64,000 nucleotides of DNA from the human T2T-CHM13v2.0 reference genome, Homo sapiens. Positions 13,041 to 39,388 of this stretch are shown here, in pieces (the first letter of the stretch is position 1; every line of letters starts with the position of its first letter). Under the pieces are notes generated by a model. It did not search any database and was not told the DNA's origin. It worked only from the letters and a program-made list of their open reading frames with translations. A program made the position numbers and the translations under genes. The stretch lies in the NCBI RefSeq assembly GCF_009914755.1, contig NC_060933.1; one strand, given 5' to 3'.

Positions 13041-13160
13041 CTATCATCTCTGATTTCTTTGAGCAGTGTTTTGTAATTCTCATTGTAGAGATCTCTCACC
13101 TCTATGGTTAGCTGTATTCCTAGGTATTTTATCTTTTTGTGGCAATTGTGAATGAGATTG

Positions 13161-13400
13161 GCAACAGAAAGAGACTCCATCACACACCTACACACAAAAA
13201 GAATCTCAGGAAGGTGGAAAGTATAAAGGTGGTTAGCAGACGGTAGGAAGAAAAAGGGTGGGATGGGGAATGAAGAGAAGTGGATAATTGGGTCCCAAAA
13301 TACAGAAAGATGGAATAAGTGAGTTCTAGTGTTTGACAGTACAGTATGAAAATTTTAGTTCACAAGAATTTCTTGCATTTTTCCAGATGCTTTGGTAAGA
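13161..13400 (+). mobile_element. Alu terminal ~20 nt followed by L1MA 3'UTR (continuation of 37530-37980)
   Basis: gcaacagaaagagactccatc, CA/A-rich tail, caaaaagaatct, then ggtggttagcaga...gaagagaagtggataattggg...gagttctagtgtttgacagtacagt typical of L1MA 3' ends. Confidence 0.82.
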
Positions 13401-13468
13401 AGCTTCCTAACTTTCTCATTATGCTGGTTTTTCAGCTATTCTCTTTCTGCTCTCGAAATCATGCTGGA

Positions 13469-13776
13469 TTTTTTGTCTTTGGTTTTTTGTTTTGAGACAG
13501 AGTTTCGCTCTTGTTGCCTAGGCTGGAGTGTAATGGTGCAATCTTGGCTCACCACAACCTCTGCCTCCTGGGGTCAAGTGATTCTCCTGCCTCCATCTCC
13601 CGAGCAGCTGGGATTACAGGCATGCCCCAGCACGCCCAGCTAATGTTGTATTTGTAGTAGAGATGGGGTTTTCTTCCTGTCTGTCAGGCTGGTCTTGAAC
13701 TCCTGACCTCAGGTGATCCGCCTGCCTTGGCCTCCCAAAGTGCTTGGATTACAGGCGTGAGCAACCGCACCCGGCC
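13469..13776 (-). mobile_element. Alu (AluS)
   Basis: Reverse full Alu. Confidence 0.93.
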
Positions 13777-14810
13777 CATGCTGCATCCTTATCTGTTGTC
13801 TGTTGTTTGTTTGTTTTTGAGCCCAGAAATAACTTCTCACCTATATGTTCAAATGATTTTTCACATGGGTGCTAAGAAAGTCCATTGGTGGAAAAGCAGC
13901 CTTTTCAAGAAATGGTGTTGGAGAAACTTGATTTCCACATGGAGAAGAATGAAGGTGGACGCTATGTCACACCAGGTGCAAAAATTAACACAAACTGGAT
14001 CAAAGACCTAACCCCAAGTGCTGAAAGTATAATATGCCTAAAAGAAAACATTGGCCACACTTTCATGACATCAGATTCGGCAATGCTTTCTGGGATATGA
14101 CACCAAAAGCACAGGCAACAAAAGAAAATTAGATTCCTTGGATTACATCTAAATGACAGACACTTTTGTGCATCAGCAAACACTGTGAACTGAGTGAAAA
14201 GATAACCCATGGATTAGGAAAAATATTTGAAAATCATATCTGTGAAAACAGGCTGATAGGCAACGTATACAAAGAACAGCTAGAACTGAACAACAAGAAA
14301 TCCAAAGCATCCCATTGACAATGGTCAGAAGACTCGAGTAGACGTGTCCCTAAAGAAGATATAGCAATGGCCAATAAGCATCTAAAATGATGTTCAAAAT
14401 CACTCATCATAGGGAAGTGCAAATCAAACCAAAATTGTGATACCACACATTTGGATGGATATGATAAACAAACAAGCATTGGTGAAACTAGAGGGAAGTA
14501 GGAATGCTCGAATCTGATTGGAGGGAATGTAAAACCGTGAAGGAACAGGGAAAATAGTATGGCGTGTACCGGAAAAAGTAGAAACAGGATTAGCGGATGT
14601 TCCCGCAGTTGCACTTGTGGGTACCTGCCAAAAAGAATTAGAAGCCAGGAGTGGAAGAGAGATTCGTACACCCAAATTCATAGCAGCAGTATTCACAACA
14701 GCCAAAATGTGGAAGCAACCCAAGGGTTCGTGGACAGATGAATGAAAAAGCACACTGCAGTTCATTCATGCGATGGAAGACTATTCAGCCTTAAAAAGGC
14801 AGGCACTTCT

Positions 14811-15120
14811 GGCCGGTGCAGTGGCTCACGCCTGTAATCCCAGCATCTTGGAAGACCGAGGTGGGCGGATCACCTGAGGTCAGGAATTCAAGACTAGCCT
14901 GGCCATCTTGGTGAAACCCTGTCTCTACTGAAAATGCGAAAAATTAGACGAGCGTGGTGACGCGTGCCTATAGTCCCAGCTACTCGGGAGGCTGAGGCAC
15001 AAGAATCGCTGGAACCCGGGAGGCGGAGGTTGCAGTGAGCCCAGATTGTGCCACTGCACTCCAGCCTGTGCGACAGAGTGAGACTCCATGTGAACACAAA
15101 ACAAAACAAAACAAAAAAAA
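14811..15120 (+). mobile_element. Alu (AluS)
   Basis: Full dimer, (CAAAA)n tail, TSD caggcacttctg. Confidence 0.95.
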
Positions 15121-15214
15121 CACCCAGACAGGCACTTCTGACACGGGCTACGACACGGATGAACCTTGAAGACATTCTCGTCAGTGAAATAAATAAATCC
15201 CAAAAGGATAAAGA

Positions 15215-15519
15215 CGACCAGGCTCAGTGGCTCGCACCTGCAACCCCAGCACTTTGGGAGGCTGAGGCAGGCGGATCACTGAAGGTCAGGAGTTTGAGAC
15301 CAGCCTGGCCAATATGGTGAAAACTGATCTCTATTAAAAATACAACAATTAGCTGGGCGTGGTGGCGCACGCCTGTAATCCCGGCTACTCGGGAGACTGA
15401 GACACAAGAATCGCTTGAACCCTCGATGTGGAGGTTGCATTCAGCTGAGACCATGCCACAACACTCCAGCCTGGGTGACAGAGAAAGACTCTGTCTCCAA
15501 AACAAAGAAACCAAAAAAA
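15215..15519 (+). mobile_element. Alu (AluS)
   Basis: Diverged full dimer. Confidence 0.92.
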
Positions 15520-36707: not shown

Positions 36708-36860
36708 CCGGTCCTCAGTCTTGACTTTGAGTCAAATCACCTGGGGAGCTTACAAATGATGAGGCCTGGGTCTCATTACCTCAGATTCTGATTTCCCTGC
36801 ACCTGTGTATGTGGTTTTGTTTTTTTTTTTTTTTTTAAAGCACCAGAGGTGGTTGCAATG
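36708..36860. mobile_element. MER5A-like DNA transposon fragment
   Basis: aatcacctggggagctt...cagattctgattt motif. Confidence 0.5.
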
Positions 36861-37009
36861 ATGAAGTTTTTAGAGGCACCAAGCTCCAATGAGTAAGAAC
36901 AGAAGTTAATTGTAGTATGATTTCTTCAAATATTATCTTCAAATGCATTGTCCATCAACACCATACAAATGTTTATTATGCTGTTGTTTCTTACCATTTA
37001 GCATTTTCT

Positions 37010-37346
37010 ATTTTTTCTTTTTCTTTTCTTTTCTTTTTTTTTTTTTTTTGAGGCAGAGTTTCACTCTTGTTGCCCAGGCTGGAGTGCAATGGCACGGTCT
37101 CGGCTCACTGCAACCTCTGCCTCCCATATTCAAGTGATTCTCCTGTCTCAGCCTTCCAAGTAGCTGGGATTACAGGTATGCGCTACCATGCCTGGCTTTT
37201 TTTTTTTTTTTTTTTTTGGTATTTTTAGCACAGACAGTGGTACTCCGTATTGGTCAGGCTGGTCTTGAACTCCCGACCTCAGGTGATCCGCCCGCTTCCG
37301 CCTCCCAATGTTCTGGGATTACAGGCGTGAGCGACCGCGCCCAGCC
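37010..37346 (-). mobile_element. Alu (AluS)
   Basis: Reverse full Alu, TSD ttagcattttc. Confidence 0.95.
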
Positions 37347-37529
37347 ACCACTTAGCATTTTCATTTTACATTTGTTGAAATTATAGATTTATACACACTT
37401 TGATGCTGCTTTGTTATACACTTGCATATACATAAGACGGGAAATAGAAAAGAATAAAATGGGCACAGTATCCCTGAAGTTTCACATTCTGAGACATGTT
37501 AAAAATATTTGCTTTTTAGAAATTTGTTT

Positions 37530-37980
37530 CAAATGAGAAACTGTGGTATACACACACAATGAAGTATTATTCAGCCTAAAAAGGAATAAACAAAATCCTC
37601 TCCACTGCAGACAAAATGGATGAGATTGCAGGTCTGTATTATTAAGTGAAATAAGCCAGGCACAGAATGACAAATATTTCATATCCTCACTTCCATGTAG
37701 GAACAAAAAAGAAAATCTTGGCCAGGTGTGGTGGCTCAGGCCTTGTAATCCCCGCACTGTGGGAGGCCGAGTCGCACGGATCACTTGAGGCCAGGAGTTC
37801 GAGACCCACCTGGCCAACATGGTGAAACCCTGTCTCTACTGAAAACACAAACAATTAGCCGGGCGTGGTGACGCATGCCTGTAGTCTCAGCTACTCGGAG
37901 GGCTGAGGCCCAAGAAGCGCTTGAACTCGGGAGGCAGATGTTGCAGCGAGCCCGGATTGTGCCTGTATACTCCAACCTAG
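37530..37980 (+). mobile_element. L1MA 3' fragment (37530-37719) followed by an Alu body lacking its terminal ~20 nt and tail (37720-37980)
   Basis: aaactgtggtatacacacacaatgaagtattattcagcc...taagtgaaataagccaggcacaga...caaaaaagaaaatctt, then Alu up to actccaacctag. Confidence 0.9.
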
Positions 37981-37986
37981 TGAGCC

Positions 37987-39388
37987 GAGATTGGGTTCGT
38001 GATTTGGCTCTCGGCCTGGCTGTTGCTGGTTTTTAGAAATGCCACTGATTTTTGCACATTGATTTTGTATCCTGCAACTTTGCTGGAGTTGTTTATCAGC
38101 TGAAGGAACTTTTGGGCTGAGACTCCGAGGTTTTCTGTATGTAGAATCATGTCATCTGCAAACAGGGATAGTTTGACTTCCTCTCTTCATATTTGGACAC
38201 CTTTTATTTCTTTCTCTTGCCTGATTGCTCTGGCCAGGACTTCCAATACTATGTTGAATAGGAGTGGTGAGAGAGGGCATCCCTGTCTTCTACTGGTTTT
38301 TAAAGGGAATGCTTCCAGCTTTTGCCCATTCCCATTCAGTATGATATTGGTTGATGTTATAGATGACTCTCATTATTTTGAGGTGCATTCCTTCAATACC
38401 TAGTTTATTGAGAACTTTTAGCATGAAGGGATGCTGAATTTTATCGAAGGCCTTTTCTGAGTCTATTGACATAATCATGTGGTTTTTGTCTTTAGCTCTG
38501 TTTATGTGGTGAATTATGTTTGCTGATTTGCATGTGTTGAACCAACCTTCAACCAAGTAGGATGAAGCCTACTTGTTTGTGGTGGGTTAACTTTTTGATG
38601 TGCTACTGGATTCAGTTAGCAAGTATTTTGTTGAAGATTATTGCATCAATGTTTGTCAAGGATATTGGCCTGAAGTTTTTGCTTTTTATTGTGCCTCTGC
38701 CAGGTTTTGGTATCAAGATGATGCTGGCCTCACAGAATGAGTTAGGGAGGAGTCCTTCCTCCTCAATGTTTTGTAATAGTTTCTATAGGAATGGTACCAG
38801 CTCTTCTTTGTACATCTGGTAGAATTTGGATGTGAATCCATCTGGTCCTGGGCTTTCTTACTGATTGAATTTCAGAGCTCATTATTGTTCTATTCAGGGA
38901 ATCAATTTCTTCATGGTTCAGTCTTGGGAGGGTTTATATGTCCAGGAACATACCCATCTCTTCTAGGTTTTCAAGTTCTTGTACATAGAGGTGTTTGTAG
39001 TAGTTTTGGATAGTTAGTTTTCTGTCTGTGGGGTCAGTGGTAACATCCCCTTTGTCATTTCTAATTGTGTTTATTTGGATCTTCTTTCTTCTTTGTTAGT
39101 CTAGCTAGTGGTCTATGTATCTTATTAATTTTTTCAAAAATCTAACTCCTGAATTTATTGGTTTTTTGAATTTTTTTGTGTGTGTCTCAATTTCCTTCAG
39201 TTCAGCTCTGATTTTTGTTATTTCTTGTCCGCTGCTAGCCTTGGAGTTGGTTTGCTCTTGCTTCTGTAATTCTTTCAGTTGTGATATTAGGTTGTTAATT
39301 TGAGATCCTGCTAACTTTTTGATGTGGATGTTTAGTGCTATTACTCTCCCTTTTAACACTGCCTTAGCTGTGTCCCAGAGTTTCTTGT
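37987..39388 (-). mobile_element. LINE-1 (older L1PA) ORF2 fragment; right half of the split element, 5'-truncated
   Basis: gagattgggttcgtgatttggctctc... continues the L1 left at 13161. Minus-strand ORFs translate to ORF2p ([41 protein letters not shown]). Confidence 0.93.

What the first reader, a model, noticed from the sequence alone, without database searches (positions are those of the whole stretch)
13154..37994. Circularly permuted OR7E-satellite-HERV-E unit: footprint of a segmental duplication that moved as a DNA circle
Seen: the insert's RIGHT end is L1MA 3' sequence, then caaaaaagaaaatct (37704-37718), then an Alu that stops at ...actccaacctag (37980). The insert's LEFT end starts gcaacagaaagagactccatc (13161-13181), which is the missing Alu terminus, followed by a CA/A tail, caaaaagaatct (13195-13206, the partner TSD) and the next stretch of L1MA 3'UTR. 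Joining right end to left end rebuilds one Alu with both TSDs inside one continuous L1MA. Established: permuted donor order is the accepted signature of duplication through circular intermediates (e.g. the KIT colour-sidedness alleles in cattle), and OR7E pseudogenes are dispersed over many human chromosomes in segmental duplications. Inference: a ~24.8-kb circle, closed by recombination within a tandem OR7E cluster or the satellite, was opened in this Alu and integrated. Serial circle excision and reintegration could be how this gene-satellite-ERV cassette dispersed. I cannot tell whether this has been reported for this locus.
Basis: partly seen in the sequence, partly recalled or inferred. 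Interest (0 to 1): 0.92.

Follow-up and report, generated by a model that had tools for sequence, protein, structure and literature searches.

The report
Exactly permuted OR7E "Xiao" duplicon insert
A 24.8-kb copy of a known human segmental duplication (the OR7E "Xiao" element) sits in chromosome 9 as exactly one repeat period cut at a single base of an Alu, the pattern expected if it arrived as a DNA circle, and a second copy on chromosome 2 shows the same pattern with two periods.

Summary
Window 13161-37980 (24,820 bp) is an insertion into one L1. Its right end is an Alu body and its left end is that Alu's tail. In 26 of 29 paralogous loci the two ends are contiguous, and no base of the ancestral junction is lost. 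The cassette is the published "Xiao" element (OR7E core flanked by SATR-HERV-E-SATR), and 9q-92a/b are listed Xiao loci. The insert is collinear with exactly one period of tandem Xiao arrays such as chr3:128.4 Mb.

New here: the chr2:71 Mb Xiao (49.1 kb, two periods) is also an exact permutation, broken 14-20 nt further along the same Alu tail. Its published "TSD" CCATCA is a short identity inside the element. A genome-wide census finds 42 intact junctions and only these two split ones.

The break lies within 4 nt of the tip of a predicted hairpin formed with a neighbouring inverted Alu. Five other rearrangements map to that Alu pair.

The best reading (about 0.55) is a circle of one or more whole units, excised by recombination between direct repeats, opened at this fragile site and integrated. 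The main rivals are template switching into a linear tandem array and a double cut at the same site. Other Xiao copies are not whole-period inserts.

The parts
13042..13153 (.). Host L1 fragment, left flank of the insertion
   Evidence: Collinear with 37994 onwards in 3 of 3 related L1 copies (L052-L054). The label 'L1' comes from those matches and from recall.
13154..13160 (+). Left copy of the 7-nt host target duplication, GAGATTG
   Evidence: Present once in the related L1 copies (GGATTG/GATTG context) and twice in the window.
13161..13195 (+). 3' tail of the split Alu; this is the left end of the insert
   Evidence: Follows the Alu body directly in 26 of 29 paralogs.
13196..13207 (+). Right copy of the Alu's own target-site duplication inside the L1 3' end
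   Evidence: Matches 37704-37718 apart from a 2-3 nt length difference.
13466..13780 (-). Inverted Alu about 290 nt downstream of the split Alu; predicted hairpin partner
   Evidence: In the intact paralog L003 the stem between the two Alus ends 4 nt after the break point (dG -227 kcal/mol, z -18.5).
13161..20050 (+). Right half of the Xiao core, including pseudogene OR7E31P (19299-19955)
   Evidence: 93-96% identical over its full length to 7 paralogs, where it lies directly downstream of the intact junction. The gene name comes from the hub annotation.
20050..22500 (+). 63/76-bp satellite block (SATR2-like)
   Evidence: The name SATR2 is taken from the literature (PMC5088589) and was not tested here.
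23050..26240 (+). 76-bp satellite block (SATR1-like), with an internally inverted stretch at about 24300-24950
   Evidence: (families D4, D6, D8; inverted pairs I1-I5).
26642..30800 (+). Truncated class-I endogenous retrovirus interior (gag p30, protease, RT, RNase H, integrase core); frames broken, no LTR or env seen
   Evidence: Pfam matches in 6 of the 7 stop-to-stop ORFs scanned; 19 ORFs were listed. The label 'HERV-E' comes from Li et al. 2009.
30825..34360 (+). Second satellite flank (SATR1-like 30825-32700, SATR2-like 32790-34360)
34400..37703 (+). Left half of the Xiao core, including OR7E116P (35115-36140), an inverted Alu (37025-37346) and the L1 3' end
   Evidence: Probes from this region hit the same paralogous loci, upstream of their intact junctions.
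37704..37718 (+). Left copy of the Alu's own target-site duplication
37720..37980 (+). Body of the split Alu; this is the right end of the insert
37981..37986 (+). 6-nt filler TGAGCC, identical to the hexamer 39-34 nt upstream of the junction in paralogous copies of this Alu
   Evidence: Absent from the related L1 copies. Templated origin is an inference.
37987..37993 (+). Right copy of the 7-nt host target duplication, GAGATTG
37994..38600 (.). Host L1 fragment, right flank

Best explanation
The insert is one complete period (core plus SATR-ERV-SATR flank) of the Xiao segmental-duplication family, and it most likely entered chromosome 9 as a closed circle.

Inferred steps:
1. Homologous recombination between the direct repeats of a donor Xiao (its two satellite-ERV flanks, or neighbouring units of an array) excised a circle of exactly one period. 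No novel closure junction results.
2. The circle was broken once, at the tip of a hairpin-prone inverted Alu pair.
3. The linear molecule was captured at a staggered break in an L1. This left a 7-nt host duplication and a 6-nt filler.

Shown directly: exact one-period length, zero-loss permutation at one nucleotide, collinearity with tandem arrays, the target duplication, and a second locus (chr2:71 Mb) with the same signature.

The chr2 locus holds two unlike periods. Its two ends overlap by a 6-8-nt identity shared with the host, as a single crossover between a dimer circle and the chromosome would give.
For: 1. Exactness. The ends meet at one phosphodiester bond of the ancestral sequence.

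2. One full period. The insert is collinear end to end with the stretch between two successive junctions of the chr3:128.4 Mb array (21.1 kb). Only satellite lengths differ.

3. Second case. The chr2 Xiao spans C2:71019929-71069047 (49,119 bp). Probe order is: right half-core, flank, left half-core, intact junction, right half-core, flank, left half-core. It starts at (CT)CCATCA|CACAC and ends at ...GAGACTGCCATCA|.

4. Coordinated shift. Compared with chr9a, the chr2 left end is 14 nt shorter and its right end 20 nt longer. Each event therefore had one break on a closed or repeating template, and there are no fixed termini.

5. Census. There are 40 body-tail pairs, plus 2 junctions confirmed by sequence, giving 42 intact junctions. 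Only chr9a and chr2:71 Mb are split.

6. Same-core origin is compatible. Both half-cores of chr9a fall in the same 'A-type' group and are closest to the single intact core of chr9b or chr3A. In the arrays examined, A-type cores are flanked by more diverged ones.

7. Fragile site. In the DNA fold of the intact paralog, the stem between the two Alus ends 4 nt after the break. Five further independent rearrangements touch this Alu pair.

8. Background from papers. Sperm circular DNA is enriched in segmental duplications (PMC8617514, abstract and passages). Circular intermediates have been proposed for other human duplications (PMC7450558 and PMC7188851, passages).
Against: - No circle was observed.
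- Because donors are tandem, permuted order alone is not diagnostic (PMC7188851).
- The two exact loci opened within 20 nt of each other, so opening was not random. The fragile-site assumption this requires also makes a double cut of a linear array possible.
- The hairpin is only a thermodynamic prediction. Any tail-to-tail Alu pair would fold this way, and the spacer (about 290-350 nt) and arm divergence (about 75-80% identity) may be too large for extrusion in vivo.
- The filler and short duplication at the chr9a junction are equally typical of replicative template switching or polymerase-theta end joining.
- chr9b (0.93 period), chr13:67 Mb and chr2:159 Mb are not whole-period inserts.
- The phylogeny of the half-cores is poorly resolved. 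The best identities are 95.8-97.2%, several loci lie within 1-2%, and no donor was identified.
Confidence: 0.55

Rival explanations
1. Replicative template switching (MMBIR/FoSTeS type) into a linear tandem Xiao array. A nascent strand from the host site primes on the donor at a short identity and copies one or two periods. It returns to the host when its 3' end again carries the same identity. No circle is needed.
For: For chr2:71 Mb the entry and exit sequence CCATCA (6-8 nt) is shared by host and element. Searches show it at both junctions, and Li et al. 2009 Fig. 3 legend reports it at the macaque empty site. It recurs once per period, which would favour return after a whole number of periods. 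The chr9a junction has a filler and a short host duplication, both common in replicative repair. Arrays with three or more junctions exist (chr3).
Against: At chr9a the shared identity is at most 2-3 nt (GG). It cannot explain exit at the very base of entry 24.8 kb later. This model takes the two half-cores from neighbouring cores, but in the arrays examined neighbouring cores differ by several percent, while both chr9a halves are A-type. A polymerase would be expected to stall at the base of a template hairpin, not at its tip (inference).
Confidence: 0.25
2. Two structure-specific double-strand breaks at the same fragile hairpin tip in two units of a chromosomal array released a linear monomer (chr9a) or dimer (chr2:71 Mb). 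End joining then inserted it elsewhere.
For: Breakpoints cluster at the inverted Alu pair in 7 loci: chr9a, chr2:71, chr2:159, chr13:40, chr14:45.97, and C8:12.948 and 12.967 Mb. A structure-specific cut could fall on the same base in near-identical units.
Against: It needs two simultaneous breaks plus a host break. The ends agree to 0-1 nt within chr9a, yet the site differs by 14-20 nt between the two loci. That fits one break per event better than two independent ones. The 6-8-nt overlap of the two chr2 ends is not expected from flush cuts.
Confidence: 0.12
3. Ordinary linear duplicative transposition of a stretch of a tandem array whose two ends coincide by chance.
For: Non-integer Xiao copies such as chr9b (0.93 period) show that linear pieces of arrays were transposed.
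Against: By my arithmetic the chance is about 1e-4 for chr9a and less than 1e-3 for chr2:71 Mb, and both occur in the same 20-nt stretch.
Confidence: 0.01
4. Retrotransposition as a giant composite LTR-retrotransposon helped by active HERV-E. Li et al. 2009 raised this as a speculation.
For: Short flanking duplications at most Xiao loci, and the timing overlap with HERV-E activity (PMC2700803, discussion, read).
Against: The termini are not fixed and lie in an Alu, not in LTR ends. The ends of the two loci shift in a coordinated way. The ERV part here is an internal gag-pol fragment with no LTR seen. The chr2 'TSD' is element sequence. At 24.8-49 kb the inserts are far beyond retroviral RNA size, as the authors themselves note.
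Confidence: 0.01
5. Assembly artefact at one or both junctions.
For: The region is a high-copy segmental duplication.
Against: Both junctions are unique sequence with a matching 7-nt host duplication. Both 9q Xiao loci had their junctions amplified by PCR in three species (PMC2700803, Table 1). Two annotated pseudogenes lie in the insert.
Confidence: 0.02

Closest known systems
Xiao element / OR7E interchromosomal core duplicon (Ji & Zhao 2008, not readable here; Li et al. 2009, PMC2700803, main text read; Mohajeri et al. 2016, PMC5088589, passages)
   Same: The same cassette: a roughly 10-kb OR7E core flanked by SATR-HERV-E-SATR. It has paralogs at the published loci (2p-71, 2q-159, 3p-8, 9q-92a/b, 10p-15, 13q-40, 13q-67, 14q, 21q, and the DA clusters on 3, 4, 7, 8, 11, 12), and short flanking duplications.
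   Different: The published complete form is flank-core-flank. This copy is half-core, flank, half-core, exactly one period. The papers I could read give no mechanism and do not mention circles or permutation ('circular', 'circle' and 'permut' have 0 hits in PMC2700803; 'circular' has 0 hits in PMC5088589). They treat CCATCA at 2p-71 as a target-site duplication.
Segmental duplications through circular intermediates: cattle colour-sidedness KIT alleles (Durkin et al. 2012, recalled); human cSDPs (Chicote et al. 2020, PMC7450558); eccDNA-mediated duplications (Takahashi & Innan 2020, PMC7188851)
   Same: Donor order A-B appears as B-A in the copy. Both copy ends map to one point of the donor. 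The junctions carry only microhomology and short indels.
   Different: In those cases a unique segment is closed by end joining, the copy number is two, and tandem donors are excluded. Here closure is by homology inside a high-copy repeat, so it is invisible. Whole multiples of the unit (1x and 2x) are found, and opening recurs at one site. Neither human paper mentions OR7E, olfactory or Xiao in its main text. Their supplementary tables were not visible.
Recombination between direct repeats giving a circle (solo-LTR formation; circular DNA from tandem repeats, Cohen & Segal, seen only in a reference list), followed by Campbell-type integration of a circle by one crossover (recalled textbook knowledge)
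   Same: A circle of one repeat period forms with no new junction. A single crossover at a short identity gives a permuted insert flanked by that identity, as at chr2:71 Mb.
   Different: No recombinase or attachment site is involved. At chr9a the junctions are not conservative (7-nt duplication plus filler).
Fragility of closely spaced inverted Alu repeats (Lobachev et al. 2000; Stenger et al. 2001; recalled, not read)
   Same: A tail-to-tail inverted Alu pair, with breaks and deletions clustered at the stem tip and loop.
   Different: The spacer (about 290-350 nt) and arm divergence (about 20-25%) are larger than the strongly unstable configurations I recall. No experimental evidence exists for this pair.

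Membership tests
Xiao element (OR7E core duplicon) | Core carrying OR7E pseudogene(s) | tested here: met
   OR7E31P and OR7E116P lie in the insert (hub annotation). The core halves are 93-97% identical to the cores at published Xiao loci.
Xiao element (OR7E core duplicon) | Flank made of satellite, HERV-E interior, satellite (SES) | tested here: met
   63/76-bp satellites lie on both sides of a gag-pol ERV fragment. The names SATR1/2 and HERV-E are taken from the papers, not tested.
Xiao element (OR7E core duplicon) | Complete architecture: flank, core, flank | tested here: not met
   This copy is half-core, flank, half-core. It is a permuted single period, not the published complete form.
Xiao element (OR7E core duplicon) | Short (4-9 bp) flanking duplication of the host | tested here: met
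   GAGATTG at 13154-13160 and 37987-37993; single in 3 of 3 related L1 copies.
Circular-intermediate (eccDNA-mediated) segmental duplication | Copy is a circular permutation of the donor order | tested here: met
Circular-intermediate (eccDNA-mediated) segmental duplication | Both copy ends map to one point of the donor | tested here: met
   Zero-loss junction at chr9a; 6-8-nt overlap at chr2:71 Mb.
Circular-intermediate (eccDNA-mediated) segmental duplication | Identifiable closure junction of the circle | tested here: inconclusive
   No novel junction outside the satellites when compared with the chr3 array. This is expected if closure was by homology, but it means the circle leaves no mark of its own.
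Circular-intermediate (eccDNA-mediated) segmental duplication | Donor not tandemly repeated, so that permutation cannot come from spanning a tandem junction (criterion of PMC7450558 and PMC7188851) | tested here: not met
   Donor-type loci are tandem arrays with 21-26 kb spacing of junctions. The argument here rests on exactness, not on order.
Circular-intermediate (eccDNA-mediated) segmental duplication | Physical existence of the circle | not testable with these tools
   Needs circle sequencing of germline DNA.
LTR-retrotransposon-like mobile element | Fixed termini shared by all copies | tested here: not met
   chr9a, chr2:71 Mb and chr9b all end at different unit coordinates. The first two shift in a coordinated way.
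Alu-Alu recombination-mediated duplication boundary (Bailey et al. 2003, recalled) | Alu on both donor and acceptor side of the junction | tested here: not met
   The acceptor is L1 at chr9a and non-Alu sequence at chr2:71 Mb.

The most novel reading that the evidence does not exclude
The Xiao/OR7E core duplicon, one of the most widely dispersed human segmental duplications, spread at least in part as episome-like circles of one or more whole units. These circles were excised by recombination between its own direct repeats, opened at a fragile inverted-Alu hairpin tip, and integrated by short-identity crossovers. The 'target-site duplications' that led to its description as a giant retrotransposon would then be crossover identities. 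This would be the first base-resolution case of recurrent circle-mediated dispersal for a high-copy human core duplicon.
Probability: 0.4. Interest if true: 0.78.

Novelty: new member of a known kind. Interest (0 to 1): 0.62.

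Why it matters
How interspersed core duplicons move between chromosomes is an open question. 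For Xiao/DA the only published idea I could read is an admittedly speculative HERV-E-assisted retrotransposition (PMC2700803).

These elements mark the breakpoints of the 8p23.1 inversions and microdeletions (PMC5088589). Two exact whole-period permutations, cut in the same Alu tail, turn the question into testable predictions:
- Circles of one or more whole Xiao units should exist in germline circular DNA.
- Lineage-specific Xiao insertions in ape and human pangenome assemblies should again be whole-period permutations.
- The inverted Alu pair should be a mapped break site.

The result also shows that reported 'TSDs' of large duplications need checking against the element's own sequence.

Tried and rejected
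Only chr3:128.4, chr4:8.95 and chr9:102.91 Mb were read in full. The other loci were mapped by short probes and small pieces, so their outer boundaries remain approximate.
- A long query (11.4 kb) to the genome search scored only one candidate and was useless for mapping.
- Looking for a donor by identity failed. No paralog is clearly closest for both half-cores, and trees were not built because the distances were unresolved.
- Testing for a hybrid satellite-ERV flank was considered and dropped. A circle and the middle unit of an array made by unequal crossing-over predict the same hybrid.
- C8:12.967 Mb first looked like another break at the junction. It is an ordinary Alu-Alu deletion with the next direct Alu.
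- C8:12.948 Mb looked like an unpaired Alu body but has an intact, diverged junction.
- C16:75424127 matched the Alu-body pattern with 2 mismatches and has no tail partner. It was not examined.
- Not held in the library: Ji & Zhao 2008 and Newman & Trask 2003.
The TSD table of Li et al. 2009 and the locus tables of Ji & Zhao 2008, Chicote 2020 and Takahashi & Innan 2020 may bear on whether the permutation at 9q or 2p was noted before.
- Searches for prior reports found nothing on circles for this family: OR7E + segmental duplication + circular (3 papers, none relevant); Xiao/OR7E/SATR1/eccDNA/HERV-E/core duplicon (2 papers); OR7E + extrachromosomal (0 papers).

Full report
**What is in the window.**
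The host sequence is an L1 fragment that runs to 13160 and resumes at 37994. Three of three related L1 copies found elsewhere in the genome cross this point without interruption.

Those copies show that GAGATTG (13154-13160) is duplicated at 37987-37993. They also show that TGAGCC (37981-37986) is extra sequence. The insert proper is 13161-37980, 24,820 bp.

From left to right the insert holds:
- the last ~35 nt of an Alu, then an L1 3' end and an inverted Alu (13466-13780);
- OR7E31P;
- 63/76-bp satellites (20050-26240);
- a broken gag-protease-RT-RNase H-integrase fragment of a class-I endogenous retrovirus (26642-30800; Pfam matches in 6 of the 7 ORFs scanned);
- satellites again (30825-34360);
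- OR7E116P and more L1 3' end;
- the first ~260 nt of an Alu.

A 341-nt probe just inside the right end finds at least 40 paralogous places in the same genome (40 of 1134 candidates were scored). I compared the 29 fetched paralogs with both ends of the insert.

In 26 of 29, the right-end sequence is followed within 2-4 nt by the left-end sequence. The three exceptions are secondary changes:
- an Alu-to-satellite junction 28 nt before the break (chr2:159 Mb);
- an Alu-Alu deletion (C8:12.967 Mb);
- a deletion of the Alu's 3' part and the spacer (chr13:40 Mb).

Fifteen of the 16 intact junctions printed read TGGGCAAC. The window keeps ..CCTAG at 37980 and GCAACAG from 13161. Every ancestral base is therefore present exactly once.

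**What the cassette is.**
It is the published 'Xiao' element: a ~10-kb OR7E core from 19p flanked by SATR-HERV-E-SATR. The literature counts 45 copies at 30 loci together with the larger DA element (Li et al. 2009, PMC2700803, main text read; Mohajeri et al. 2016, PMC5088589, passages). Table 1 of Li et al. lists two Xiao loci, '9q-92a' and '9q-92b'. These fit this window and its closest relative 515 kb away in opposite orientation (C9:102.907-102.929 Mb; 96-98% identity in most 500-nt windows).

Those papers report 4-9-bp flanking duplications and leave the mechanism open. They offer HERV-E-assisted retrotransposition as a speculation. 'Circular', 'circle' and 'permut' do not occur in Li et al., nor 'circular' in Mohajeri et al..

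**The donor structure.**
At chr3:128.4 Mb the junction recurs at 128432803, 128453952 and 128476524, so the element forms a tandem array. The whole insert is collinear with the stretch from the first to the second junction (91-95% identity). The only differences are satellite lengths.

The insert is therefore exactly one period of such an array. Equivalently, it is the core plus one flank of a flank-core-flank element. Recombination between the direct repeats would give a circle of just this content with no new junction.

**A second exact case.**
The right half-core query showed a copy at C2:71019929 that starts 14 nt into the Alu tail. Small fetches of that locus's two edges show the following:
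- left: host ...GTGCCC, then CTCCATCACACAC...;
- right: ...GGGCAACAGAAAGAGACTGCCATCA, then host GAAGAAC....

Probe positions in between give two collinear periods, of 22.9 and 26.3 kb, around one intact junction. The two units are unlike each other: their left half-core ends are 90% identical. This excludes two turns around a monomer circle.

Li et al. sequenced the macaque empty site of this locus and called CCATCA a target-site duplication (Fig. 3 legend). CCATCA is also the element's own sequence at exactly that place. The junctions therefore look like one conservative crossover at a 6-8-nt identity.

Compared with chr9a, the chr2 left end is 14 nt shorter and the right end 20 nt longer. 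This coordinated shift is expected when a closed or repeating template is cut once at slightly different places. It is not expected for an element with fixed termini.

**Census.**
Two patterns taken from the window were searched genome-wide: 28 nt of the Alu tail and 25 nt of the Alu body end, each with up to 3 mismatches. They give 79 and 86 matches.
- 40 body-tail pairs lie 3 nt apart.
- Two more junctions are intact but diverged (L028; L055).
- Unpaired halves occur only at chr9a (both halves) and at the right edge of chr2:71 Mb.
- One 2-mismatch body match on chr16 was not examined.

**Not all copies fit.**
- chr9b runs from about window coordinate 22790 through the intact junction to 21154. 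That is 0.93 period, lacking ~1.6 kb of satellite that chr9a and chr3 both have.
- chr13:67 Mb has the core but none of the three flank and core-start probes.
- chr2:159 Mb is not a whole number of periods by probe positions.

Linear pieces of arrays were therefore also transposed, or circles lost sequence on opening.

**Why the same Alu.**
The split Alu is followed ~290 nt later by an inverted Alu. Folded as single-stranded DNA, the intact paralog forms a ~260-bp stem between the two Alus (dG -227 kcal/mol; 20 shuffles averaged -129; z -18.5). The last pair of that stem lies 4 nt after the chr9a break. The chr2:71 Mb break lies 10-16 nt further on, in the loop.

Other rearrangements touch this pair:
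- the junction at J-28 on chr2:159 Mb;
- a deletion from J-159 to the first base of the inverted Alu on chr13:40 Mb;
- an inverted junction at J+256 on chr14;
- a 250-nt deletion inside the inverted Alu at C8:12.948 Mb;
- an Alu-Alu deletion at C8:12.967 Mb.

This supports a fragile site but does not prove one. The search was centred on this region, and any tail-to-tail Alu pair would fold this way.

**Mechanism.**
Independent random ends cannot explain two whole-period inserts. My arithmetic gives about 1e-4 and less than 1e-3. The two ends must be coupled.

The simplest coupling is one break in a closed molecule of one or more whole units, that is, a circle (confidence 0.55). Circles from duplicated and tandem DNA are documented, and sperm circular DNA is enriched in segmental duplications (PMC8617514, abstract and passages). 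Circular intermediates have been proposed for a few other human duplications (PMC7450558, PMC7188851). Neither of those papers mentions this family in its main text, and both exclude tandem donors.

The main rival (0.25) is template switching into a linear array with return at the same short identity. It fits chr2:71 Mb well but fits chr9a poorly, where the identity is only 2-3 nt. A double cut at the fragile tip (0.12) needs more breaks. It also fits poorly with ends that agree to a base within a locus but differ by 14-20 nt between loci. Chance, retrotransposition and misassembly are each at or below 0.02.

**Verdict.**
The cassette and locus are already described. The permutation reading, the second locus and the fragile Alu tip appear not to be in the papers I could search or read.

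Noticed in passing
L049 and L050 (C2:71019201-71020200 and C2:71067701-71069700): The chr2:71 Mb Xiao is an exact two-period permutation. Its published TSD CCATCA is part of the element's Alu tail.
   Followed up: yes
L008 (C2:159337538-159340877), about position 2070: The junction Alu is cut 28 nt before the chr9a break and joined to satellite equivalent to window ~21961. This removes the right half-core inside the chr2:159 Mb array.
   Followed up: partly
L014 (C13:40655577-40658909): A deletion runs from window-equivalent 37822 to 13471: the 3' part of the junction Alu, its tail and the whole spacer, ending at the first base of the inverted Alu.
   Followed up: partly
L013 (C14:45964703-45968038): The core breaks 256 nt after the junction and continues into inverted satellite (window-equivalent 22953 down to 22012). 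A second core lies 10 kb away in opposite orientation.
   Followed up: no
window 16145-16520: A second cluster of breakpoints among paralogs. Many DA-type copies stop matching at ~16280, chr3:8.68 Mb at ~16145, and the first chr2:71 Mb unit at ~16520.
   Followed up: no
window 13161-37980 versus C9:102907245-102929000: Two Xiao copies 515 kb apart in opposite orientation are 96-98% identical. Such a pair could mediate an inversion. I did not check whether one is known.
   Followed up: no
window 24300-24950: A stretch of the 76-bp satellite is inverted relative to its neighbours (inverted pairs I1-I5).
   Followed up: no
window 37981-37986: The filler TGAGCC equals the hexamer 39-34 nt before the junction in paralogous copies of this Alu. 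This suggests a templated insertion during joining.
   Followed up: partly
G000:C16:75424127-75424151: A 2-mismatch match to the Xiao-type Alu body end, with no tail partner and no other Xiao probe nearby in my lists. It could be chance or an isolated fragment.
   Followed up: no
window 54260-54781: A RefSeq enhancer feature lies outside the insert. Not examined.
   Followed up: no
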